Source: a virus
Lineage: Duplodnaviria > Heunggongvirae > Uroviricota > Caudoviricetes
DNA length: 41,089 nt
Direction: 5' to 3' (one strand)
Virus record (IMG/VR): IMGVR_UViG_2563366819_000008
Below the pieces are notes generated by a model. That model was not told the origin of the DNA and did not search any database. It saw nothing but the letters and a program-made list of their open reading frames with translations. Of the stretch, positions 1 through 41,089 are shown piece after piece. Each line of letters begins with the position of its first letter. Within the stretch, counting starts at the first letter, position 1. The translations under genes and the position numbers were made by a program.

Positions 1-516
1 ATGGAATTTAAAAAATGTCTTCTGCCTGTGGCAATGTTAGCGTCATTCACTCTGGCAGGATGCCAGTCAAATGCTGATGATCATGCCGCCGATGTTTATC
101 AAACCGATCAACTGAATACCAAACAAGAAACTAAAACCGTTAATATTATTTCCATTCTTCCCGCAAAAGTTGCCGTAGACAACTCCCAAAATAAACGAAA
201 CGCACAAGCCTTCGGCGCGCTTATTGGTGCAGTCGCTGGCGGTGTTATTGGCCACAACGTCGGGTCTGGCAGCAATTCCGGAACGACGGCAGGTGCAGTT
301 GGCGGCGGAGCTGTTGGCGCGGCAGCGGGTTCTATGGTGAATGATAAAACCTTAGTGGAAGGTGTTTCTCTAACGTATAAGGAAGGCACCAAAGTGTATA
401 CCTCCACCCAGGTGGGTAAAGAGTGCCAGTTTACGACAGGTTTAGCCGTTGTTATTACCACGACGTATAACGAAACGCGTATTCAGCCAAATACCAAATG
501 TCCTGAAAAGAGCTAA
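1..516 (+). CDS. yfgH: Outer-membrane lipoprotein with glycine-zipper region (YfgH-like); host flank
   Basis: Signal peptide with lipobox LAGC; Gly/Ala-rich zipper GAVAGGVIGHNVGSG...; symbol is tentative, based on size and synteny with a 179-aa neighbour and a guaA 3' end. Confidence 0.5.
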   Translation: MEFKKCLLPVAMLASFTLAGCQSNADDHAADVYQTDQLNTKQETKTVNIISILPAKVAVDNSQNKRNAQAFGALIGAVAGGVIGHNVGSGSNSGTTAGAVGGGAVGAAAGSMVNDKTLVEGVSLTYKEGTKVYTSTQVGKECQFTTGLAVVITTTYNETRIQPNTKCPEKS

Positions 517-531
517 TGATCAGGAGGAGTC

Positions 532-1071
532 ATGAAGAAAGTTTTTCTTTGCGCCATCTTAGCCTCCTTAAGCTATCCGGCTATCGCCTCATCATTGCAG
601 GATCAACTCTCTGCTGTCGCAGAAGCGGAACAGCAAGGTAAAAATGAAGAGCAAAGGCAGCATGACGAATGGGTCGCGGAGCGCAACAGGGAAATCCAGC
701 AAGAGAAGCAACGTCGCGCAAACGCCCAGGCCGCCGCTAACAAAAGAGCGGCAACGGCAGCGGCAAATAAGAAAGCTCGTCAGGATAAACTGGACGCCGA
801 AGCCTCTGCGGACAAAAAACGCGATCAAAGTTATGAAGATGAGCTACGCAGCTTAGAGATTCAGAAACAAAAACTGGCGCTGGCGAAAGAAGAAGCCCGC
901 GTTAAGCGAGAAAACGAATTTATCGATCAGGAACTGAAGCACAAAGCTGCGCAAACCGATGTGGTGCAATCTGAAGCTGACGCAAACAGGAATATGACTG
1001 AGGGCGGTCGCGATCTGATGAAAAGCCTGGGCAAAGCAGAAGAGAACAAATCGGACAGCTGGTTTAACTAA
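532..1071 (+). CDS. yfgI: Secreted coiled-coil protein, 179 aa (YfgI-like); host flank
   Basis: N-terminal signal peptide; charged Q/E/K/R/A-rich body; RBS aggagg upstream; symbol tentative, from synteny and length only. Confidence 0.45.
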   Translation: MKKVFLCAILASLSYPAIASSLQDQLSAVAEAEQQGKNEEQRQHDEWVAERNREIQQEKQRRANAQAAANKRAATAAANKKARQDKLDAEASADKKRDQSYEDELRSLEIQKQKLALAKEEARVKRENEFIDQELKHKAAQTDVVQSEADANRNMTEGGRDLMKSLGKAEENKSDSWFN

Positions 1072-1110
1072 GCGATGTCAGTAACTTCAAGCCTATGATT
1101 CGTGAGTATA

Positions 1111-1142
1111 AAAAACCCTCTGTAGTAACAGAGGGTTTTGTT
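1111..1142. terminator. Bidirectional intrinsic terminator (A-run, CCCTCTG/CAGAGGG hairpin, T-run)
   Basis: aaaaaCCCTCTGtagtaaCAGAGGGttttg directly after the 532..1071 stop and before the guaA-like 3' end on the other strand. Confidence 0.6.
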
Positions 1143-1163
1143 CATTCATAGTGCAGGGTCAAA

Positions 1164-6400: not shown

Positions 6401-6525
6401 CCGTTCAGGTCAGACACCTGAACAACCAGGTCTGATTTTCTGAAAATTCGAAAAGTATACGGAAACGATGTCGTAACGCCGTTACCGGTGTATTCGTTGT
6501 GGTCAACTTCGGTTGAGACCGTCAT
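3406..6525 (-). CDS. Tailspike protein (1039 aa) with beta-helix glycosidase-like body and C-terminal intramolecular-chaperone domain
   Basis: N-terminal particle-binding type domain; DFGAVGDGINDDSTAI motif typical of pectate-lyase-fold tailspikes; C-terminal region resembling self-cleaving chaperone domains of endosialidase-type fibres. Confidence 0.8.
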   Translation of the reverse strand: MTVSTEVDHNEYTGNGVTTSFPYTFRIFRKSDLVVQVSDLNGNVTELVLDTGYTVTGAGTYSGGSVVLPSPLATGWRITIDRVLDVVQETDLRNQGKFFPEVHEDAFDYLTMLIQQCFGWFRRALMKPSLLAKYYDAKQNKISNLADPSFEQDAVNNRSMRNYVDAAIAGVVGGFGWFIQYGSGAVYRTFQDKMRDAISPKDFGAVGDGINDDSTAISACLEASSPGYKIDGLGLTFKVSTLPDVSRFKNARFLFERIPGQPLFYASEDFIQGELFKITDTPWYNAWTQDKTFVYDNVIYAPFMAGDRHGVNNLHVAWVRSGDDGKTWTTPEWLTDLHENYPTVNYHCMSMGVVRNRLFAVIETRTVSGNKLQVAELWDRPMSRSLRVYGGITKAANQQVAYIRITDHGLFAGDFVNFSNSGVTGVTGNMTVTTVIDKNTFTVTTQNTQDVDQNNEGRYWSFGTSFHSSPWRKTSLGTIPSFVDGSTPVTEIHSFATISDNSFAVGYHNGDIGPRELGILYFSDAFGSPGSFVRRRIPAEYEANASEPCVKYYDGILYLTTRGTLSTQPGSSLHRSSDLGTSWNSLRFPNNVHHSNLPFAKVGDELIIFGSERAFGEWEGGEPDNRYAGNYPRTFMTRVNVNEWSLDNVEWVNVTDQIYQGGIVNSAVGVGSVCIKDNWLYYIFGGEDFLNPWSIGDNNRKYPYVHDGHPADLYCFRVKIKQEEFVSRDFVYGATPNRTLPTFMSTSGVRTVPVPVDFTDDVAVQSLTVHAGTSGQVRAEVKLEGNYAIIAKKVPSDDVTAQRLIVSGGETTSSADGAMITLHGSGSSTPRRAVYNALEHLFENGDVKPYLDNVNALGGPGNRFSTVYLGSNPVVTSDGTLKTEPVSPDEALLDAWGDVRYIAYKWLNAVAIKGEEGARIHHGVIAQQLRDVLISHGLMEEESTTCRYAFLCYDDYPAVYDDVITGQREMPLTDNDGSIIVDEDDNPVMVIEDIIERVEITPAGSRWGVRPDLLFYIEAAWQRREMDKIKERVQSLEER

Positions 6526-34308: not shown

Positions 34309-34893
34309 ATGAAAAGTATCCAGGACGTCCGCAGGCAAAATCTCAACGACTTGATCGACCGTGAATTCAATGGTGTTCAGACGCGGATGGCAGAAAAACT
34401 TGGAACTCAGGCAAATCTGGTAAACCGCTGGGCTCTTGGCAAGAAGGTTATCGGCGACCAGGTTGCACGAAAAATTGAAGCTGCCGCCAATAAACCCCGT
34501 AACTGGCTTGATATCGATCGCTCGCTTTCTCAGGAAGGTTTTCAGCCTGTCGGCCCAAGCGACATTGGCCAGCTGGCGGCTCACAACCTGGAACGCTGGA
34601 TGAGCGAAAGCCGCGACCTTTCAACACAGGGAAAACTTCACCGCGCATCCGGCGTAGCCCAGGTGACAATCAGCCGCCTGTTAAACAATGAGGTCAGCGT
34701 TTCCATTTCCACCCTGGAGAATGTTGCATCCGCATTCGGGCGTCACGGCTATGAATTACTGATTCACCCGCACGACCCTGCGACCATCAACTATGATCGC
34801 TCGCGCTACGCATTGTTACCCGAAACCGAGAAAGCAAAGATCGAAAGTTACATTGAATTTGTCATCAACCAGAACGAAAAAAACAAACAATAA
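34309..34893 (+). CDS. Repressor-position protein with two tandem HTH domains and no LexA-like autopeptidase domain
   Basis: Two HTH_XRE-like segments (QTRMAEKLGTQANLVNRW and HRASGVAQVTISRLL); divergent from cro; own terminator. Confidence 0.55.
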   Translation: MKSIQDVRRQNLNDLIDREFNGVQTRMAEKLGTQANLVNRWALGKKVIGDQVARKIEAAANKPRNWLDIDRSLSQEGFQPVGPSDIGQLAAHNLERWMSESRDLSTQGKLHRASGVAQVTISRLLNNEVSVSISTLENVASAFGRHGYELLIHPHDPATINYDRSRYALLPETEKAKIESYIEFVINQNEKNKQ

Positions 34894-34913
34894 AACCATA
34901 TTTTTCAGTAAGT

Positions 34914-34940
34914 AAGCCGCCTTATGGCGGCTTTTTCATT
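34914..34940 (+). terminator. Intrinsic terminator AAGCCGCC-TTAT-GGCGGCTT plus T-run
   Basis: Directly after the repressor stop. Confidence 0.65.
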
Positions 34941-34949
34941 GCCTATTCG

Positions 34950-34966
34950 ATTACCTAACGGGTAAT
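34950..34966. promoter_or_regulatory. Operator ATTACC-TAACG-GGTAAT (early-left promoter)
   Basis: Perfect 17-bp palindrome. Confidence 0.6.
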
Positions 34967-35011
34967 TTTTTTAACTCATATCTATTGACATCAAACCATA
35001 TACGCATAATT

Positions 35012-35028
35012 ATTACCTCAACGGTAAC
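35012..35028. promoter_or_regulatory. Operator ATTACC-TCAAC-GGTAAC (early-left promoter)
   Basis: Second site 62 bp from the first; TTGACA hexamer at about 34985 between them. Confidence 0.6.
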
Positions 35029-35046
35029 AGACCGAGGTAACAAGTT

Positions 35047-35199
35047 ATGCAGTGGAAAATCATCAACGGTTGGTACTGCGTTACTGCATGCGGATTCATG
35101 AGCTGGAAGTTCCGCACCTTACAGGAAGGCATTAAGTGGGCTTTCGTCAGCAAAGAAGCTCGCGATGTGGCCAACGATAACGAGATATGGGAGGGCTGA
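35047..35199 (+). CDS. Hypothetical 50-aa protein, first gene of the early-left operon
   Basis: RBS GAGGT; below the track cutoff, translated by hand. Confidence 0.3.
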   Translation: MQWKIINGWYCVTACGFMSWKFRTLQEGIKWAFVSKEARDVANDNEIWEG

Positions 35200-35201
35200 T
35201 A

Positions 35202-35501
35202 ATGAACGTTAATCAGCAGAAAAATCTTCAAAAAATCATGCTGGCATTCGACAAGGACTACCGCCTGTCAGAACAGCTATATGACCGACAAGTTGAACTG
35301 ATTGAGAGCATCCGACTTCATCAACTGTCCTCAACTTTCGACGTTGTAACAGGCAAAGGCGTTCGTCAGGAAGTGCTGGAGGCTGCTAAAGACAGCCCTG
35401 AGTTCGAAGAACTGATGGATGCCTACCGGCGCGAGGCAATGGCAATTATCGCCCGCTGGGATCTGGCGGATCAGCTTGATGGACAGAGGGACGCGGCATG
35501 A
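35202..35501 (+). CDS. Hypothetical protein (99 aa) ahead of the recombination genes
   Basis: RBS gggaggg; position analogous to Gam/Abc-type genes, but no similarity recognised. Confidence 0.4.
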   Translation: MNVNQQKNLQKIMLAFDKDYRLSEQLYDRQVELIESIRLHQLSSTFDVVTGKGVRQEVLEAAKDSPEFEELMDAYRREAMAIIARWDLADQLDGQRDAA

Positions 35502-36319
35502 ATCCGGGAATTTATTTCGATATCAGCAACGAAGACTACCACGCCGGTGACGGCGTGAGTAAGTCGCAACTGGACATGGTTGCCAAGAATCCGGCGCTTC
35601 TTAAATGGGTTCAGGCAGCACCAGAAGACGAAGAGAAAAAGTCTGCACTGGATATGGGAACCGCATTGCACTGTCTGCTTCTGGAGCCTGGAGAGTTCGA
35701 CAAACGCTTCATTGTTTCACCGAAATTCGATCGTCGGACGAAACAAGGTAAAGCTGACGAAGAGGCATTTCTTCGTGATGTGGCGGATATGGGGATTACG
35801 GTACTTGATGCCGAGCAGTGGCGGAAACTGGAGCTGATGCGTGATAGCGCAATGGCTCACCCGGCGGCACGCTGGATGTTGGAAGCACCTGGTTACTGCG
35901 AAGCGTCAATGTACTGGAACGATGAAGAAACGGGTGAGTTGTGCCGAATTCGTCCAGACAAATGGCTGAACGAGCACAACGTGATCATCGACGTGAAAAA
36001 GGTTGCAGATATGGACCGTTTTGCACGTCACATCGAGGAATTCCGCTACCACGTGCAGGACGCAATGTACCGCGAAGGCGCAATGAGGGTTACTGGTCAG
36101 CCGCATGGTTTTTTCTTTCTTGCCGTGAGCGAAAGCATTGATTGTGGTCGGTATCCGGTACGCGTGTTCGAGCTGGATGCGCCGGATGTCGATGCCGGGC
36201 ACGCTCTGTTCCGCCGGGATCTGAATACCTATCACGAATGCCGCATCAACGATGAGTGGGGCGGAGTGGAAATTATTAAACGCCCTGACTGGGCACGTAA
36301 ACAGGATATGTACGTATGA
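35498..36319 (+). CDS. Recombination exonuclease, PD-(D/E)XK (YqaJ-like)
   Basis: D...E.K type block around IIDVKK; translationally coupled to RecT. Confidence 0.6.
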   Translation: MNPGIYFDISNEDYHAGDGVSKSQLDMVAKNPALLKWVQAAPEDEEKKSALDMGTALHCLLLEPGEFDKRFIVSPKFDRRTKQGKADEEAFLRDVADMGITVLDAEQWRKLELMRDSAMAHPAARWMLEAPGYCEASMYWNDEETGELCRIRPDKWLNEHNVIIDVKKVADMDRFARHIEEFRYHVQDAMYREGAMRVTGQPHGFFFLAVSESIDCGRYPVRVFELDAPDVDAGHALFRRDLNTYHECRINDEWGGVEIIKRPDWARKQDMYV

Positions 36320-37197
36320 GCAATGATATCGCAATCACATCACAACCAGGCGCAACTGTAGGCACTGCTGCGGCAATCTTCAGCCCCGAGGGAATGAATC
36401 AACTGGTGCGTTTCGCTGAGTTGATGTCACAAAGCAAAGCGACTGTACCGAAACATCTTGAAGGCAAACCTGCCGATTGCCTGGCGGTGACCATGCAGGC
36501 GGCACAGTGGGGAATGAACCCTTTCGCCGTGGCGCAGAAAACGCATGTGGTAAACGGAACGTTAGGCTACGAAGCACAGTTGGTAAACGCGGTCGTATCC
36601 TCGTCAAGCCTGCTGGCGACACGCCTGAATTATCGCTGGAGCGGTGACTGGTCGAATGTTAACGGCAAAACAGATAAATCACCGAATCTGACGGTAACTG
36701 TGTCAGCAGTTCTTAAAGGAGAAGCAGAACCACGTGAGCTTACCATCAGTATGGCGCAAGCCGGAGTGCGTAACTCTCCATTGTGGGAACAGGATCCTCG
36801 CCAGCAGCTTGCCTATCTTTGCACGAAACGATGGGCTCGCCTGCACGCTCCTGATGTGCTTCTCGGTGTTTACACCCCTGACGAATTACAGGAAACGGCA
36901 CCGCGCGTTGAGCGAGACATTACTCCGCAAACGACTACTGCTGCGGGAATGAACAGTCTGATCAACGCTAAACCAGTGAAAAAGCATGATGAGCAAACGC
37001 GTAAAGCGGATAGCCGTGATCCAGAAGAAATGCTGATGGCCTTTACCAGCGCAGCGATGAATTACAGCACCGTCTCCGAACTGGATAAGGCTTACAAATA
37101 CATTGCACAAAAACTTTCAGATGATGACGAACTGCTGGCAAAAGCCACCGACGTTTACAGCGTTCGTCGGGAAGAATTAAACGAAACATCTATGTAA
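36316..37197 (+). CDS. recT: RecT-family single-strand annealing protein
   Basis: NPF and KRWAR blocks typical of the RecT/Red-beta family; ATGA overlap with the exonuclease. Confidence 0.7.
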   Translation: MSNDIAITSQPGATVGTAAAIFSPEGMNQLVRFAELMSQSKATVPKHLEGKPADCLAVTMQAAQWGMNPFAVAQKTHVVNGTLGYEAQLVNAVVSSSSLLATRLNYRWSGDWSNVNGKTDKSPNLTVTVSAVLKGEAEPRELTISMAQAGVRNSPLWEQDPRQQLAYLCTKRWARLHAPDVLLGVYTPDELQETAPRVERDITPQTTTAAGMNSLINAKPVKKHDEQTRKADSRDPEEMLMAFTSAAMNYSTVSELDKAYKYIAQKLSDDDELLAKATDVYSVRREELNETSM

Positions 37198-37246
37198 CCA
37201 CCACCGCGGCGCCACGCGCGCCGCACTGCAACCAAGAGAGGTATTT

Positions 37247-37495
37247 ATGAAAGGTGCATTAGGTAAGAAGGAACTCCTAGCGGTGGTGCCACTGTCATGG
37301 AGCACTATCGACCGTATGGAGCGCGCAGGGGAATTTCCTAAACGCTGGTATATCACCGATAAACGCTGCGCATGGAACCGTGATGAAGTTGAGCGTTGGC
37401 TTGATGAACGTCAGGCAGCAAGCCCGGCAGAGTTCCAGGGTAAAAAACCTCCTGTTCAGCAACGTGTATATCGTCCTGTGAGCAACGCTGCATGA
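37247..37495 (+). CDS. AlpA-like excisionase/regulator
   Basis: Small HTH with W...DRMERAGEFPKRW...W..DEVERWL pattern. Confidence 0.55.
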   Translation: MKGALGKKELLAVVPLSWSTIDRMERAGEFPKRWYITDKRCAWNRDEVERWLDERQAASPAEFQGKKPPVQQRVYRPVSNAA

Positions 37496-37652
37496 GTGCG
37501 CTGCTAAGGCACTGGAGCAAATGGTCAGGATGGTACTTATTCCTGGCCTCTGTTTCAGCATGGCTTTATCTGCTGGCATTAATTTTCAGAGAGGGTTGGA
37601 TTAAGTGAGAAAGTTAAGCCGACTTGAAAAATATCACATGAACAAGGTTTCA

Positions 37653-37904
37653 ATGCGCAGCCATTCAAAGGTTGTTGCCGTTACTCCTGCGGCGATAGAG
37701 ATCGAAAAACGCGCGATTGAAAGAGAGAAAAAAGGGCAGTTCCGCATTGCCGCCCACCTTTGGCTTCAGTGTATGGATGTTGCTTCTGGTGATGTTGAGC
37801 GTGCAAGGATCGCGGTTCGAAGGGACCAATGTATCACAAAAGGTAACGGCCTTCGCCGTGGCGACTATAGCGGTATAGGATGTTGCGGGGTGGTTTATGA
37901 ATAA
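37653..37904 (+). CDS. PerC-family-like small regulator (tentative)
   Basis: Block FRIAAHLWLQCMD...ERARIAVRRDQC resembles the PerC/Pch family as recalled; start chosen at ATG with aagg RBS. Confidence 0.4.
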   Translation: MRSHSKVVAVTPAAIEIEKRAIEREKKGQFRIAAHLWLQCMDVASGDVERARIAVRRDQCITKGNGLRRGDYSGIGCCGVVYE

Positions 37905-39000
37905 TCAAAACAATAATGTAAAAGGTAATATCATGAGCAAGGTAGGCGATTATTTCTTTGAATTTCCCGCATCACGAGGAGCGCAGGGAAGTACTGTAAT
38001 ACTTATGATGACAGTACCAGCAAGAGCACTATCGAGAGTATTGGCAACCGACAATACGGGAAGTACCCTTGAACGTTCTCAACGTGAAATTAATCCAACC
38101 AGGGTAAAAAAGTTTTATCAATATTTAGTCAACGCTTACGAGAAAAAGGAACCATTTATTGTTCCACCATTGGTCGGAAATTGTAACTCAGAAATAGAGT
38201 TCCATGAGATTGGAAATACTAATGTCGGTTTAGCTAGATTTCCTATGGATGCAGAAATAAAATTATTTGATGGACAGCATCGTGCTGCAGGATTAGCTGA
38301 GTTCTGCCGTAATTATGGTGAAACAATTATGATTCCTCTTATGCTTACGCATAACCTTCCTTTGAAGGCGCGTCAGCAGTTCTTTTCTGACATTAATAAT
38401 AATGTTTCAAAACCATCTGCAGCAATTAATATGGCGTATGACGGACGAAACGATGTTGCCCAAGAAATGGTGTCTTTCCTGTCGCAACATGACACTTTTG
38501 CAGAAGTCACTGACTTCGAGCACAACGTTGTTCCGTCAAAGTCAAACATGTGGGTGAGTTTCAAAGCATTAAGTGATTCAACATCAAAATTTTGTATTCA
38601 TAATGGGAAAAAACTAGAAATTGGTAACATCGAGTCAGTATGGGAATCATGGTTATGTCTTACACAACTAGAAGCAATTCGCCATGGTACAAAGCAATCA
38701 GAATACAAAAGAGAATATATCCAGTTTCATGCAGTGATGATTAACGCTTTTGGCTATGCTGTTCAGCAAATGATGGTTAATCACTCAATAAAAGAAATAA
38801 TTTCAATGATTGAAACATTATGTGCAAATACTGACTTCGCAGAAAGAGAGAATTTTTTCCTAATGGATAATTGGGTTGGGATCTGCACGAAAGCAAGCCA
38901 GGGAAAACTATCAGTTATTGCCAATGTAGCAGCACAGAAAGCGGCAGCAAACAGGCTGATACAAGCCTTTACCAAAGGAAGTCTGGGAGCAGAACAATGA
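37897..39000 (+). CDS. DGQHR-domain (DndB-like, ParB-fold) protein
   Basis: Explicit FDGQHRAAGL motif; overlaps upstream stop and downstream start. Confidence 0.65.
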   Translation: MNNQNNNVKGNIMSKVGDYFFEFPASRGAQGSTVILMMTVPARALSRVLATDNTGSTLERSQREINPTRVKKFYQYLVNAYEKKEPFIVPPLVGNCNSEIEFHEIGNTNVGLARFPMDAEIKLFDGQHRAAGLAEFCRNYGETIMIPLMLTHNLPLKARQQFFSDINNNVSKPSAAINMAYDGRNDVAQEMVSFLSQHDTFAEVTDFEHNVVPSKSNMWVSFKALSDSTSKFCIHNGKKLEIGNIESVWESWLCLTQLEAIRHGTKQSEYKREYIQFHAVMINAFGYAVQQMMVNHSIKEIISMIETLCANTDFAERENFFLMDNWVGICTKASQGKLSVIANVAAQKAAANRLIQAFTKGSLGAEQ

Positions 39001-39644
39001 AAAAATACACGCTAATCTATGCAGATCCACCCTGGGTATACCGGGACAAAGCCGCAGATGGTAATCGCGGTGCCGGTTTTAAATATCCGGTTATGAGTGT
39101 GCTGGATATCTGCCGCCTTCCTGTGTGGGATTTGGCCGATGAAAACTGTCTGTTGGCCATGTGGTGGGTGCCAACACAACCACTCGAAGCACTAAAAGTT
39201 GTTGAAGCCTGGGGATTCCGTCTGATGACGATGAAGGGCTTCACGTGGATAAAATGTGGTAGTCGACAACAAGATAAACTGGTTATGGGTATGGGACACA
39301 TGACTCGCGCCAATAGTGAAGATTGCCTGTTTGCGGTAAAGGGAAAACTACCTACGCGCATTAATGCAGGGATCGTTCAGTCATTTACCGCACCGCGGCT
39401 TGAGCATTCAAGAAAGCCAGATATCGTTCGTGAAAAACTTGTGCAATTATTAGGCGATGTTTCTCGCATTGAACTGTTCGCCCGCCAGACGTCTCATGGC
39501 TTCGATGTTTGGGGTAATCAGTGCGAAGACCCGGCAGTGCAACTACACCCTGGATACGCGTTGGATATTGGCGGATTAACAAATGCATTCAGCAATGCTC
39601 CGCTGTCACCAACAGACAACCAGGGGCGGGAGCGTGCTGCATGA
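38997..39644 (+). CDS. MT-A70-family N6-adenine DNA methyltransferase
   Basis: IYADPPW motif and conserved C-terminal FAR...GWD.WGN-type block; ATGA overlap with DGQHR gene. Confidence 0.8.
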   Translation: MKKYTLIYADPPWVYRDKAADGNRGAGFKYPVMSVLDICRLPVWDLADENCLLAMWWVPTQPLEALKVVEAWGFRLMTMKGFTWIKCGSRQQDKLVMGMGHMTRANSEDCLFAVKGKLPTRINAGIVQSFTAPRLEHSRKPDIVREKLVQLLGDVSRIELFARQTSHGFDVWGNQCEDPAVQLHPGYALDIGGLTNAFSNAPLSPTDNQGRERAA

Positions 39645-39835
39645 ACAGGGCATCACCAGCAGATTTAAGAAAATGCCTTGAAACTGCAAACATGCTTGCA
39701 CACAGCGGGATCAGGTTTGTTCCAATTCCCGCTGTCACTGATGCTGAATTTGCAACACTGTCAGCAATATTCGAAAACAAAATTGAATCACTGGCAGCAG
39801 AAGCAGAGATGGAAGAAAATCAGCAGAACTATTAA
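39641..39835 (+). CDS. Small protein (64 aa) coupled to the methyltransferase
   Basis: ATG overlaps the MTase TGA (ATGA). Confidence 0.4.
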   Translation: MNRASPADLRKCLETANMLAHSGIRFVPIPAVTDAEFATLSAIFENKIESLAAEAEMEENQQNY

Positions 39836-39838
39836 ACG

Positions 39839-41089
39839 TTATTCCCCCGCCATCCACTTCTCAAACTTCGACGGGGAGAACGGAATCAGATCCGTATGCT
39901 CCCCGTCAATCCATGAATCAATCATATCGGCCCACTGCTGCAACATGTAGGCGCGCTGTCTGGCGTATTCCGCTTTGTTATATACGGCGCGCACACCTTT
40001 CTGCTCATGTGCCAGAGCCTTTTCAATCCAGTCTGAAGGATAACCAGCCTCATGCAACAACGTACTGGCTGTACGGCGCATATCATGTACAGTGAAGTCC
40101 TGAATATGCTCACCATCTTCATTTATTATTTTCACCGTTCTGTCGATCAGAGAGTTCAGCGCGGCATTAGATAATGGCTTCCGGAAATTGTAACGACCAG
40201 GAACCAGATATTCACTTCCACCAGCGCACATCTGCAACCCGACCAATATATCCTGTGCCTGTTTAGGCAGGTAAATAACGTGCGCCCGGCTTCCCTTCAT
40301 GCGGTCTGGAGGAATTGTCCATGTCCATTTTTTAAAATCTATTTCATCCCACGTTGCATTGGTGAATTCGCCCTTACGAACCATAGTGATAAGCACCAGT
40401 TTTAAAGCCATTTTCATAGTGCCCATAGCACCAATGGCATCCAGCGTGCGGAAGAACAGGCCAATTTCTTCTGGTGTCAGTGTTCGCTCTCGTGGTTTAA
40501 ATATGGCGATAGACGAAGGTTTAATGTCAGCCGCAGGATTAAACAAACCATGACCACGGTCATTGGCGTGACGGTATACGCTACTGATGATCTCCCTGGC
40601 CTGCACTGCTGTTGCCCGGCCACCGCGTTCGACAATCCGGTCACACAAATCACGAACCATCGATGTGGTAATTTCAGCCATCATTTTATTGCCAAGAACC
40701 GGAAGTATGTCACGGTCGATCACCGCCTGTTTCATTGCGCGGGTACTGTCAGCCAGGATGACGTGTTTCATATAACTGTCGGTATGTACCGCAAACGTCT
40801 CGGCACCACGAATCTTTTTGATACCGTCACGTTTAGCCGCAGCCGGTGACTGGCCTGCTTTAAGCAGCTTCTTTGCAGCAATCAGTTCTTCTCGCGCTTC
40901 TGCCAGGCTGATACCGTCACGCCCATACTGCCCGATTACCAGTGTTTCGCGGCGACCGTTGATACGGTAGTCATAGCGAAACGAGACCGTGCCTGACGTA
41001 AGCACAGCTACATACAGCCCGTCACGATCGGAGACCTTGTACAGTTTGTCCTGCGGCTTGAGGTTTTTTAATTTTGTATCGGTAAGCAC
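39839..41089 (-). CDS. Tyrosine integrase (P4-type); 5' end at window edge
   Basis: N-terminus LTDTKLKNLKP...DKLYKVSDRDGLYV; C-terminal catalytic region with conserved R/H/Y context; first codon in window is GTG. Confidence 0.85.
   Translation of the reverse strand: MLTDTKLKNLKPQDKLYKVSDRDGLYVAVLTSGTVSFRYDYRINGRRETLVIGQYGRDGISLAEAREELIAAKKLLKAGQSPAAAKRDGIKKIRGAETFAVHTDSYMKHVILADSTRAMKQAVIDRDILPVLGNKMMAEITTSMVRDLCDRIVERGGRATAVQAREIISSVYRHANDRGHGLFNPAADIKPSSIAIFKPRERTLTPEEIGLFFRTLDAIGAMGTMKMALKLVLITMVRKGEFTNATWDEIDFKKWTWTIPPDRMKGSRAHVIYLPKQAQDILVGLQMCAGGSEYLVPGRYNFRKPLSNAALNSLIDRTVKIINEDGEHIQDFTVHDMRRTASTLLHEAGYPSDWIEKALAHEQKGVRAVYNKAEYARQRAYMLQQWADMIDSWIDGEHTDLIPFSPSKFEKWMAGE

What the first reader, a model, noticed from the sequence alone, without database searches (positions are those of the whole stretch)
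37605..39835. Translationally coupled DGQHR(DndB-like)-MT-A70-small protein operon next to int: candidate DNA-modification or RM-like module
Four genes are chained by overlapping stop/start codons (8-nt overlap, then ATGA twice). The 367-aa protein carries the DGQHR motif of DndB-type ParB-fold proteins, which in Dnd/Dpd systems act with DNA-modifying enzymes. The 215-aa protein is an MT-A70-type adenine methyltransferase (DPPW). No cognate restriction endonuclease is visible. The pair could be (a) an anti-restriction methylation module with a DNA-targeting partner, or (b) an atypical nuclease-plus-methylase defence system protecting the lysogen. I do not recognise this pairing as a described system.
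Basis: partly seen in the sequence, partly recalled or inferred. Interest (0 to 1): 0.8.

Follow-up and report, generated by a model that had tools for sequence, protein, structure and literature searches.

The report
Phage early-operon methylase plus optional DndB-like gene
The four overlapping genes are real, but they are the tail end of a known prophage's early operon: a resident orphan DNA methylase preceded by an optional DndB-like DNA-binding gene that is probably an entry-phase anti-restriction helper, not a new restriction or defence system.

Summary
PerC-like, DGQHR/DndB-like (ParB/Srx fold), MT-A70 and DUF1382 genes are chained by 8-nt, ATGA and ATGA overlaps next to int.

The proposed "pair as a system" reading is not supported.
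- The window is a phiV10-like (Uetakevirus) prophage. The chain is the distal end of a tightly packed early-left operon of about ten genes.
- phiV10 has PerC followed directly by MT-A70. The DGQHR gene is a 1,095-bp low-GC (38.5%) presence/absence segment, found in 21 of 561 E. coli genomes carrying this region.
- Homologues (52-78% identical) lie in early-left operons of many temperate enterobacterial phages.
- In 46 of 98 loci an orphan methylase follows within 2.2 kb on the same strand. Five Pfam families are involved: MT-A70, Dam, D12, N6_N4 and C5.
- DGQHR proteins at least 95% identical precede different methylases or none. This rules out a cognate nuclease-methylase pair.
- Homologues of 41-42% identity occur on 1,063 plasmids, mostly conjugative. 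In the IncL/M plasmid inspected, the gene sits in the leading region near an antirestriction gene and ssb. In one metagenomic relative it directly precedes ArdA.

Best reading: an entry-phase anti-restriction island made of the lineage's orphan m6A methylase plus an independent, NTP-dependent DNA-binding accessory protein of untested function. No functional study was found in the searchable library. Interest is moderate.

The parts
34985..35013 (+). Promoter-like site downstream of the repressor-gene terminator (34914-34933). Candidate start of the early-left operon.
   Evidence: it is the only + strand promoter-like match before the operon, and no + strand promoter or terminator follows up to 40000. 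This is a consensus match only. phiV10 annotates a terminator at the equivalent place.
37247..37495 (+). AlpA-family excisionase/regulator gene
   Evidence: Pfam Phage_AlpA 3.1e-05. Annotated as AlpA in phiV10.
37492..37608 (+). 38-aa hydrophobic ORF linking AlpA and PerC by ATGA and GTGA overlaps
   Evidence: Translation. It occupies the position of the phiV10 p35 membrane protein.
37605..37904 (+). PerC-family transcriptional activator gene (start ambiguous: 37605, 37639 or 37653)
   Evidence: Pfam PerC 5.6e-07. phrog_868 5.3e-61 over residues 1-99. Annotated in phiV10 and RefSeq.
37897..39000 (+). DGQHR/DndB-like ParB/Srx-fold protein gene (367 aa from 37897; family start at 37933 gives 355 aa)
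37905..38999 (.). Low-GC presence/absence segment relative to phiV10
   Evidence: blastn against phiV10 loses homology at 37904 and regains it at 39000. GC is 0.385 against 0.483 and 0.496 in the flanking genes. The 30 nt before 37933 resemble the 3' end of the DUF1317 gene that precedes DGQHR in other phages.
38997..39644 (+). Orphan MT-A70-family N6-adenine DNA methyltransferase gene
   Evidence: Pfam MT-A70 positions 1-172 of 172, 7.3e-23. PADLOC MTase_II 5.1e-77. 97.7% identical to the phiV10 p33 product. The closest solved structures are MT-A70-family proteins and METTL3.
39641..39835 (+). DUF1382 small protein gene, last gene of the operon
   Evidence: Pfam DUF1382 1.8e-30. phrog_292. 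Replaced by a NinI-type phosphatase in phage PAS61.
39839..41089 (-). Tyrosine integrase (P4-type arm-binding domain), convergent; marks the prophage end
   Evidence: Pfam Arm-DNA-bind_3, Phage_int_M and Phage_integrase. In related genomes it lies next to guaA.

Best explanation
The locus is the distal, accessory end of the early-left operon of a phiV10-like temperate phage. It works as an entry-phase anti-restriction island, not as one integrated system.

The MT-A70 enzyme is the lineage's resident orphan m6A methyltransferase. It is inferred to methylate phage DNA when the operon is switched on, which blunts host restriction.

The DGQHR gene is an optional cassette. It encodes a member of a clade of DndB-like ParB/Srx-fold proteins carried by mobile elements. 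It is translated by coupling from the upstream gene, and its 3' end carries the ribosome-binding site and ATGA for whatever gene follows.

I infer that it binds a nucleotide triphosphate through the invariant DGQHR arginine motif and acts on DNA, not on a particular methylase. I also infer that it helps newly entered or newly replicating element DNA survive host DNA-targeting immunity, independently of and in parallel with methylation.

Shown here: gene identities, the fold, operon packing, the presence/absence polymorphism, and the phage and plasmid contexts.

Inferred: NTP and DNA binding, the anti-restriction role, and when the genes are expressed.
For: 1. The backbone is phiV10-like. phiV10 has PerC followed directly by MT-A70, with the same 8-nt junction.
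2. 561 of 5,426 complete E. coli genomes carry the region, and only 21 include the DGQHR segment.
3. The methylase is 97.7% identical with or without the DGQHR gene.
4. The operon is tightly packed and shows no internal + strand promoter or terminator.
5. Homologues always lie on the operon strand between the recombination genes and xis/int.
6. In 98 loci, 51 methylase ORFs were found. Of these, 49 lie within 1.7 kb downstream on the same strand, one lies at +2.2 kb, and one lies upstream. They span five Pfam families.
7. One DGQHR cluster at 95% identity or more precedes Dam (8 loci), MT-A70 (6), N6_N4+C5 (3), C5 (1) or no methylase (6).
8. Other downstream neighbours are dATP/dGTP pyrophosphohydrolases, one of them fused to a Lar restriction-alleviation domain.
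9. Homologues of 41-42% identity occur on 1,063 plasmids, of which 882 are conjugative.
10. In the IncL/M plasmid inspected, the gene lies on the ssb/antirestriction side of the mobA/traI relaxase genes.
11. The closest non-phage representative sits in the order DnaJ-DGQHR-ArdA-Hha-Antirestrict.
12. The ParB/Srx fold and invariant DGQHR-domain motifs are present.
13. A DndB-like protein binds ATP and GTP in vitro (PMC12704722).
14. Orphan methylases and anti-restriction genes are known to be enriched in plasmid leading regions (PMC11541004).
Against: - No experiment addresses this protein family. The anti-restriction role rests on neighbourhood alone.
- The region between the recombination genes and xis/int is a general accessory hot spot. 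Adjacency to methylases may reflect shared location, not shared purpose.
- Plasmid leading regions also hold regulators and stability genes such as Hha, DnaJ-domain proteins and KorB/TrfB-like proteins. A regulatory role fits those contexts equally well.
- The strict order, with DGQHR upstream of the methylase, hints at a closer link than mere co-residence.
- The loci sampled are redundant and almost all from Enterobacterales, and gene calling in the survey was crude.
- Whether the operon is silent in the lysogen cannot be read from the sequence. It follows the repressor gene on the same strand.
Confidence: 0.5

Rival explanations
1. Methylation-assist module. The DGQHR protein is a generic, NTP-driven DNA-binding or remodelling partner. 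It loads base-flipping DNA-modifying enzymes onto element DNA, or speeds or confines their action. This would parallel DndB with DndCDE, DpdB with DpdA, and the ParB-methylase fusion proteins. The pair would then be a split version of those fusions.
For: - A methylase follows the DGQHR gene in 46 of 98 loci and in 11 of 20 DGQHR clusters, almost always immediately downstream.
- This includes an independent instance at 33% identity in Vibrio phage Va_PF430-3_p42, with the order DGQHR, C5 methylase, small gene, int.
- Other DGQHR relatives lie next to, or are fused with, PAPS-reductase/PP-loop DNA-modification-type enzymes.
- ParB-CTPase-fold fusions to methylases are enriched in prophages (PMC12704722).
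- The DGQHR 3' end always carries the ribosome-binding site and start for the next gene.
Against: - The methylase is present without DGQHR in about 96% of E. coli genomes that carry this region.
- DGQHR occurs with no methylase nearby in about half of the loci, including the most abundant E. coli lineage, and in the inspected plasmid leading region, where no annotated methylase lies nearby.
- Near-identical DGQHR proteins pair with unrelated methylase families. Specific protein contacts are therefore unlikely.
- No DGQHR-methylase fusion was found among ten long relatives.
- The methylase sequence is unchanged whether or not DGQHR is present.
Confidence: 0.25
2. DndB-like regulator. The protein is an NTP-responsive DNA-binding repressor that tunes or shuts off early or leading-region genes, for example a potentially toxic methylase. 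DndB represses dndBCDE in this way, and KorB silences plasmid genes.
For: - DndB is a dimeric transcriptional repressor of its own operon (PMC4507180).
- Plasmid homologues lie near KorB-domain, ParA/ParB and TrfB-related genes.
- Non-specific prophage methylases are toxic and are kept silent (PMC5778455).
Against: - The protein is only 24% identical to DndB.
- The gene is not at the head of an operon and has no promoter next to it.
- No inverted repeats were found in 34800-39900.
- The DndB box TACGN10CGTA occurs once in the window, at 6458 inside a tail gene, which is chance level.
- The downstream genes vary too much for one dedicated regulator.
Confidence: 0.12
3. RM-like or other defence system. 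The DGQHR protein is a ParB-fold nuclease or effector that attacks unmodified DNA, the MT-A70 protects self DNA, and together they defend the lysogen.
For: - Low GC and patchy distribution are typical of defence cargo.
- PADLOC matches DndB and MTase_II models.
Against: - The two genes are distributed independently.
- The same DGQHR protein occurs with five methylase families of differing chemistry, or with none.
- There is no separate nuclease domain.
- There is no own promoter, and the gene lies in an operon with recombination and excision genes.
- Plasmid relatives sit beside anti-restriction genes, the opposite side of the conflict.
Confidence: 0.05

Closest known systems
DndB (regulator of the Dnd phosphorothioation system; TIGR03233, PF14072)
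   Same: Same domain family, with the RxQR, DGQHR and FxDxN motifs and a similar length. DndB binds DNA as a dimer (PMC4507180), and a DndB-like protein binds ATP and GTP (PMC12704722).
   Different: Only 24% identity, and far below the equivalog cut-off of 328 bits, at 110 bits. No dndCDE or dndFGH genes are nearby. It lies inside a phage operon, not at the head of its own. No DndB operator was found.
ParB-CTPase-fold fusions to DNA methyltransferases in prophages and plasmids (PMC12704722); the plasmid methylase M.EcoGIX (PMC7736820)
   Same: A ParB-superfamily fold is combined with an orphan methylase on a mobile element. Both are expressed at entry and are proposed to act in anti-restriction.
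   Different: Here the two are separate genes that are inherited independently. The ParB-fold partner belongs to the DndB/DGQHR branch. No fusion was found among the relatives tested. M.EcoGIX is plasmid-borne and specific for single-stranded DNA, and it was not compared here.
Anti-defence islands of plasmid leading regions (PMC11541004) and orphan phage methylases such as M.EcoGII and Hia5
   Same: The genes are co-oriented and expressed first. Orphan methylases, ArdA, ArdB/KlcA and ssb sit next to DGQHR homologues. Prophage methylases are thought to switch on only at induction (PMC5778455).
   Different: DGQHR proteins are not among the characterised anti-defence families. A DGQHR family appears only as a small uncharacterised entry in that paper's supplement. 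M.EcoGII and Hia5 are DPPY enzymes of other families, not MT-A70.
Escherichia phage phiV10 / Salmonella phage SPN1S (Uetakevirus) early-left operon
   Same: Same backbone and gene order. phiV10 is 95-98% identical in DNA across the flanks. SPN1S has PerC-DUF1317-DGQHR-MT-A70-small gene-int, with 75% and 78% protein identity for the DGQHR and methylase genes.
   Different: phiV10 lacks the DGQHR gene. SPN1S keeps a DUF1317 gene, of which the window retains only about 30 nt.

Membership tests
DndB (Dnd system regulator) | DGQHR domain with its signature motifs | tested here: met
   Pfam DndB 4.5e-46 and TIGR03187 2.2e-56. The motifs are invariant in 39 homologues.
DndB (Dnd system regulator) | Scores as a DndB equivalog (TIGR03233 cut-off 328 bits) | tested here: not met
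   110.2 bits. 24% identity to S. enterica DndB.
DndB (Dnd system regulator) | Linked to dndCDE (and dndFGH) | tested here: not met
   Neighbours in the window are PerC, MT-A70, DUF1382 and int. No dndCDE homologue was seen next to the gene in any phage or plasmid context inspected. A canonical dndBCDE locus is shown for contrast.
DndB (Dnd system regulator) | Binds TACGN10CGTA operators at its own promoter | tested here: inconclusive
   One match in the window, at 6458 and far from the gene, at chance level. No inverted repeats lie in the operon. The specificity of this protein is unknown.
DpdB (Dpd 7-deazaguanine DNA modification) | Linked to the DpdA transglycosylase and preQ0 synthesis genes | tested here: not met
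   No such neighbours appear in the window or in the related loci inspected. The family definition comes from general knowledge.
ParB/Srx (ParB-CTPase) fold proteins | N-terminal ParB/Srx fold with an arginine-containing phosphate-binding motif | tested here: met
ParB/Srx (ParB-CTPase) fold proteins | Binds or hydrolyses a nucleotide triphosphate | not testable with these tools
   Known only by analogy to a DndB-like protein that binds ATP and GTP (PMC12704722).
Type II restriction-modification system | A methyltransferase is present | tested here: met
   MT-A70 matched at full length. PADLOC MTase_II 5.1e-77.
Type II restriction-modification system | A cognate endonuclease is adjacent and inherited together with the methylase | tested here: not met
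   No nuclease family hit among the four genes. The methylase occurs without DGQHR in 540 of 561 genomes. DGQHR clusters at 95% identity or more occur with different methylase families or none.
MT-A70 N6-adenine methyltransferases | Full MT-A70 domain with the DPPW catalytic motif | tested here: met
   Pfam positions 1-172 of 172. YADPPWVY at residues 8-15. PDB sequence matches to MT-A70 family proteins and METTL3.
MT-A70 N6-adenine methyltransferases | m6A activity and target motif | not testable with these tools
   No methylome study of the phiV10-type enzyme was found.
ParB-fold-methyltransferase fusion proteins | ParB fold and methylase in one polypeptide | tested here: not met
   They are separate genes here. 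Ten long DGQHR relatives carry no methylase domain, and one carries a PAPS_reduct domain.
Entry-phase anti-restriction islands of mobile elements | Located in the first-expressed, co-oriented gene block, with known anti-restriction neighbours | tested here: met
   Early-left operon in phages. An IncL/M leading region with an antirestriction gene and ssb beside the mobA/traI relaxase genes. ArdA and PF03230 Antirestrict neighbours. A Lar-domain neighbour.
Entry-phase anti-restriction islands of mobile elements | Measurable relief of restriction or other defence | not testable with these tools
   This requires phage or plasmid assays.

The most novel reading that the evidence does not exclude
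DGQHR proteins carried by mobile elements are a previously unrecognised, widespread family of entry-phase factors. They occur in temperate phage early operons and on more than 1,000 plasmids, mostly conjugative and including IncL/M pOXA-48 relatives. On this reading they use NTP-dependent DNA binding either to boost any co-resident orphan methylase or to block DNA-targeting immunity directly, possibly the ParB-fold-containing Dnd, Ssp or GmrSD-type systems.
Probability: 0.25. Interest if true: 0.75.

Novelty: new variant of a known kind. Interest (0 to 1): 0.42.

Why it matters
If the DGQHR clade does help incoming DNA escape host immunity, it would add a new protein class to the anti-restriction repertoire. 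That class is shared by temperate enterobacterial phages and by clinically important conjugative plasmids; the gene is intact in many IncL/M plasmids and split by IS1 in classical pOXA-48.

It would also give a function to DndB-like proteins that have come loose from Dnd and Dpd systems.

There are nearly matched natural phages with and without the gene: this prophage and phiV10. That makes the question directly testable.

As it stands, the locus is mostly an ordinary, already annotated piece of a known prophage type.

Tried and rejected
- Foldseek of the model against the PDB gave nothing significant. A PDB sequence search for the DGQHR protein gave no hit. The afdb50 library was unavailable.
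- BFVD gave only low-TM matches to DndB-like, DUF262 and ParB proteins.
- I looked for DGQHR-methylase fusions as a Rosetta stone. An all-library profile search found 840 clusters. Ten long members carried no methylase domain, and there was one PAPS_reduct fusion.
- I looked for a DndB operator or any inverted repeat in the operon and found none.
- I checked whether the methylase equals a characterised non-specific enzyme. M.EcoGIX is plasmid-borne, and M.EcoGII and Hia5 are DPPY enzymes of other families.
- Literature searches on DGQHR, DndB-like, phiV10 methylase, leading region and pOXA-48 found no functional study.
- Context look-ups for several distant representatives returned contigs too short to inform. 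The lytic Vibrio phage context was uninformative.
- I first read the segment as a simple insertion into phiV10. This is not resolved. SPN1S carries PerC-DUF1317-DGQHR-MT-A70 with divergence similar to the flanks, and the window keeps a DUF1317 remnant. Loss in the phiV10 branch is therefore equally possible.
- The metagenome and genome collection scans were not used.
Full report
**1. The observation**

- A PerC-like ORF lies at 37605-37904.
- A 367-aa ORF at 37897-39000 overlaps the PerC stop by 8 nt.
- A 215-aa ORF at 38997-39644 joins it by ATGA.
- A 64-aa ORF at 39641-39835 joins that by ATGA.
- A convergent integrase lies at 39839-41089.

The profile searches agree with the domain calls.
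- Pfam gives PerC 5.6e-07, DndB 4.5e-46, MT-A70 7.3e-23 over the whole model, and DUF1382 1.8e-30.
- NCBIfam gives DGQHR domain TIGR03187 2.2e-56.
- PADLOC matches only the DndB and MTase_II models.
- PHROGs gives phrog_7901, of unknown function, at 1e-225, and phrog_359, DNA methyltransferase.

Two refinements apply.
- The start shared by the whole family is the ATG at 37933. The ATG at 37897 is the site phiV10 uses for its methylase, and it is in frame.
- The coupling extends well beyond these four genes. AlpA, a 38-aa ORF and PerC are chained by ATGA and GTGA, and exo/RecT share an ATGA. No + strand promoter-like or terminator-like site lies between 35013 and 40000. Overlapping stops and starts are the house style of this operon, not evidence that these four genes belong together.

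**2. What the locus is**

The window is a phiV10-like (Uetakevirus) prophage.
- Its structural half is 95-97% identical to phiV10 and phiv142-3.
- The region 37200-39900 matches phiV10 at 97-98%, except for a gap.
- In related genomes the integrase lies next to guaA.

In phiV10 the PerC gene overlaps the methylase gene by the same 8-nt junction. Homology to phiV10 stops at 37904 and resumes at 39000. The 1,095 bp in between are the DGQHR gene, with GC 0.385 against 0.48-0.50 in the flanking genes.

Of 5,426 complete E. coli genomes, 561 carry the region and 21 carry it with the DGQHR segment. The methylase is 97.7% identical in both forms. Another relative, PAS61, has a NinI-type phosphatase in place of DUF1382. 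The end of the operon is therefore a variable accessory zone.

The direction of the polymorphism is not settled.
- Salmonella phage SPN1S has PerC-DUF1317-DGQHR-MT-A70-small gene-int. Its DGQHR and methylase proteins are 75% and 78% identical to the window's. The AlpA-PerC flank is 78.6% identical in DNA.
- The 30 nt before 37933 in the window resemble the DUF1317 3' end.

Ancestral presence with loss in the phiV10 branch is as plausible as insertion.

**3. The DGQHR family in phages**

A database search found 228 cluster representatives with E at most 1e-5. The 120 listed are 52-99% identical to the query and nearly all from Enterobacterales.

I examined 98 loci, drawn from annotated phages, NCBI contigs and IMG/VR. 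The gene always lies on the strand of the early-left operon, between the recombination or replication genes and xis/int. It is usually ATGA-coupled to the next gene, with a GGAG-type ribosome-binding site embedded in its own 3' end.

The next gene varies.
- Methylases of five Pfam families occur there: MT-A70 (in three sequence types), Dam PF05869, D12 PF02086, N6_N4 PF01555 and C5 PF00145. The C5 family includes a 500-aa enzyme in a Vibrio temperate phage whose DGQHR protein is only 33% identical.
- Of 51 methylase ORFs in these loci, 49 lie within 1.7 kb downstream on the same strand. Seven of the 49 were mis-binned by my script because of an alternative upstream start. One further ORF lies at +2.2 kb and one lies upstream. 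Comparable flanks were available on both sides.
- About half of the loci have no methylase nearby. These include the most abundant E. coli lambdoid lineage, with the order gam-DUF1317-DGQHR-TraR-like-DUF4222-xis.
- Others have a dATP/dGTP pyrophosphohydrolase, once fused to a Lar restriction-alleviation domain.

The key point is. Within one DGQHR cluster at 95% identity or more (24 loci), the downstream enzyme is Dam in 8, MT-A70 in 6, N6_N4+C5 in 3, C5 in 1, and absent in 6.

**4. The DGQHR family on plasmids**

tblastn found homologues on 1,063 plasmid records. Of these, 882 are conjugative, and most come from Klebsiella, Enterobacter and Escherichia. The IncL/M protein is 41% identical to the window's over the full length.

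In the IncL/M plasmid p24A18009_A_KPC the order is JAB-HTH-DGQHR-DUF4942-Hha-DUF1380-antirestriction-ssb. The mobA and traI relaxase genes follow about 2 kb further on, and oriT, which is not annotated, is presumed to lie in that gap. That places DGQHR in the leading region.

The closest non-phage representative (E 3.7e-119) lies on a 43.7-kb contig in the order DnaJ-DGQHR-ArdA-Hha-Antirestrict(PF03230).

Two other relatives sit next to PAPS-reductase-family genes. One representative is a PAPS_reduct-DndB fusion.

**5. Interpretation**

A cognate restriction-modification pair requires matched specificity and joint inheritance. Here each gene commonly occurs without the other, and one DGQHR sequence precedes enzymes of different families and chemistries. 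The nuclease-plus-methylase defence reading is therefore rejected (about 0.05).

The same facts argue against specific protein contacts with MT-A70.

What unites the contexts is timing and company. The gene sits in the block a mobile element expresses first on entering or waking in a cell, next to orphan methylases, ArdA, ArdB/KlcA, Lar and ssb. Such islands are established for plasmids (PMC11541004), and prophage methylases are thought to switch on only at induction (PMC5778455).

I therefore read the window's locus as an anti-restriction island. It consists of the lineage's orphan m6A methylase plus an optional, independently acting ParB/Srx-fold protein that most likely binds NTP and DNA (confidence about 0.5). 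The NTP and DNA binding is inferred from the invariant motifs and from a DndB-like protein that binds ATP and GTP (PMC12704722).

The main rival (about 0.25) is a generic methylation-assist role. It is supported by the strict DGQHR-then-methylase order, the distant Vibrio instance, and the precedent of DndB/DndC, DpdB/DpdA and ParB-methylase fusions. It is weakened by the independent distributions and by the lack of fusions.

A DndB- or KorB-like regulatory role (about 0.12) fits some plasmid contexts. However, no operator or adjacent promoter was found.

**6. Comparison with known families**

- The protein is not DndB proper. It scores 110 bits against a 328-bit cut-off, is 24% identical, and has no dnd genes nearby.
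- It is not linked to Dpd genes.
- It belongs to the DndB/DGQHR branch of the ParB/Srx superfamily.
- The methylase is a standard MT-A70 enzyme of unknown specificity. It is not M.EcoGII, M.EcoGIX or Hia5.

No paper in the searchable library addresses stand-alone phage or plasmid DGQHR proteins. A DGQHR family appears only as a small uncharacterised entry in a supplement.

**7. Verdict and caveats**

The "new system" reading is largely not supported. The locus is an annotated, polymorphic part of a known prophage type.

What remains of interest is the clade of DGQHR proteins on mobile elements. It is a widespread, uncharacterised candidate entry-phase factor.

Caveats:
- The loci sampled are redundant and centred on Enterobacterales.
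- My ORF calling was simple.
- The accessory-slot confound cannot be removed with these data.
- All functional statements are inferences from context and fold.

Noticed in passing
window 37492-37608 (+): A 38-aa hydrophobic ORF (MSALLRHWSKWSGWYLFLASVSAWLYLLALIFREGWIK) overlaps the AlpA stop by ATGA and the PerC GTG start by GTGA. It corresponds to the phiV10 p35 'membrane protein' and extends the coupled chain to at least six genes.
   Followed up: partly
window 39620-39644; L003, L028, L031, L035-L040, L045, L050 (3' ends of the genes downstream of DGQHR): Unrelated cassettes (MT-A70, Dam PF05869, N6_N4 and a 154-aa Cys-rich protein) end in nearly the same module of about 13 nt, GGAGGCNGCATGA. 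This gives protein tails ...REAA or ...TEAA. The window's methylase ends GGGAGCGTGCTGCATGA (RERAA). This looks like a shared ribosome-binding-site plus stop/start junction that could serve as micro-homology for cassette swapping.
   Followed up: partly
L035-L038, L040-L044, L047-L052 (about +3 to +465 after the DGQHR stop): A 154-aa Cys-rich protein with no Pfam match often sits between the DGQHR gene and the variable methylase in other temperate phages. It is absent from the window.
   Followed up: no
plasmid hits H93-H102 (63.5-66 kb plasmids of pOXA-48 size): The DGQHR homologue is split by an IS1B insertion in these plasmids. It is intact in other IncL/M plasmids.
   Followed up: no
P0261; L103 7490-9499; L006 935-1936: A 697-aa PAPS_reduct-DndB fusion protein exists. 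PAPS-reductase-family genes also lie next to DGQHR genes on a Citrobacter plasmid and in Pseudoalteromonas phage KB12-38. Together these suggest a second, non-methylase partner class.
   Followed up: partly
L004, L010-L012, L014-L019, L057, L059, L060 (0-1.7 kb upstream of DGQHR): A separate HTH_ParB protein of 260-350 aa recurs just upstream of the DGQHR gene in Klebsiella, Salmonella and Citrobacter prophages. The window has none.
   Followed up: no
window 35498-37197 (+): The window has separate exonuclease (273 aa) and RecT (293 aa) ORFs coupled by ATGA. The phiV10 RefSeq record annotates a single fused RecE-RecT gene at this place.
   Followed up: no
window 1-1161: The first 1.16 kb, which holds two + strand ORFs, is not covered by the phiV10-type phage matches that begin at 1162. 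It may be flanking host DNA or a different module.
   Followed up: no
window 34309-35013 (+): The putative repressor gene (34309-34893), a terminator-like hairpin (34914-34933) and a promoter-like site (34985-35013) all lie on the same strand as the early-left operon. Read-through in the lysogen therefore cannot be excluded.
   Followed up: no
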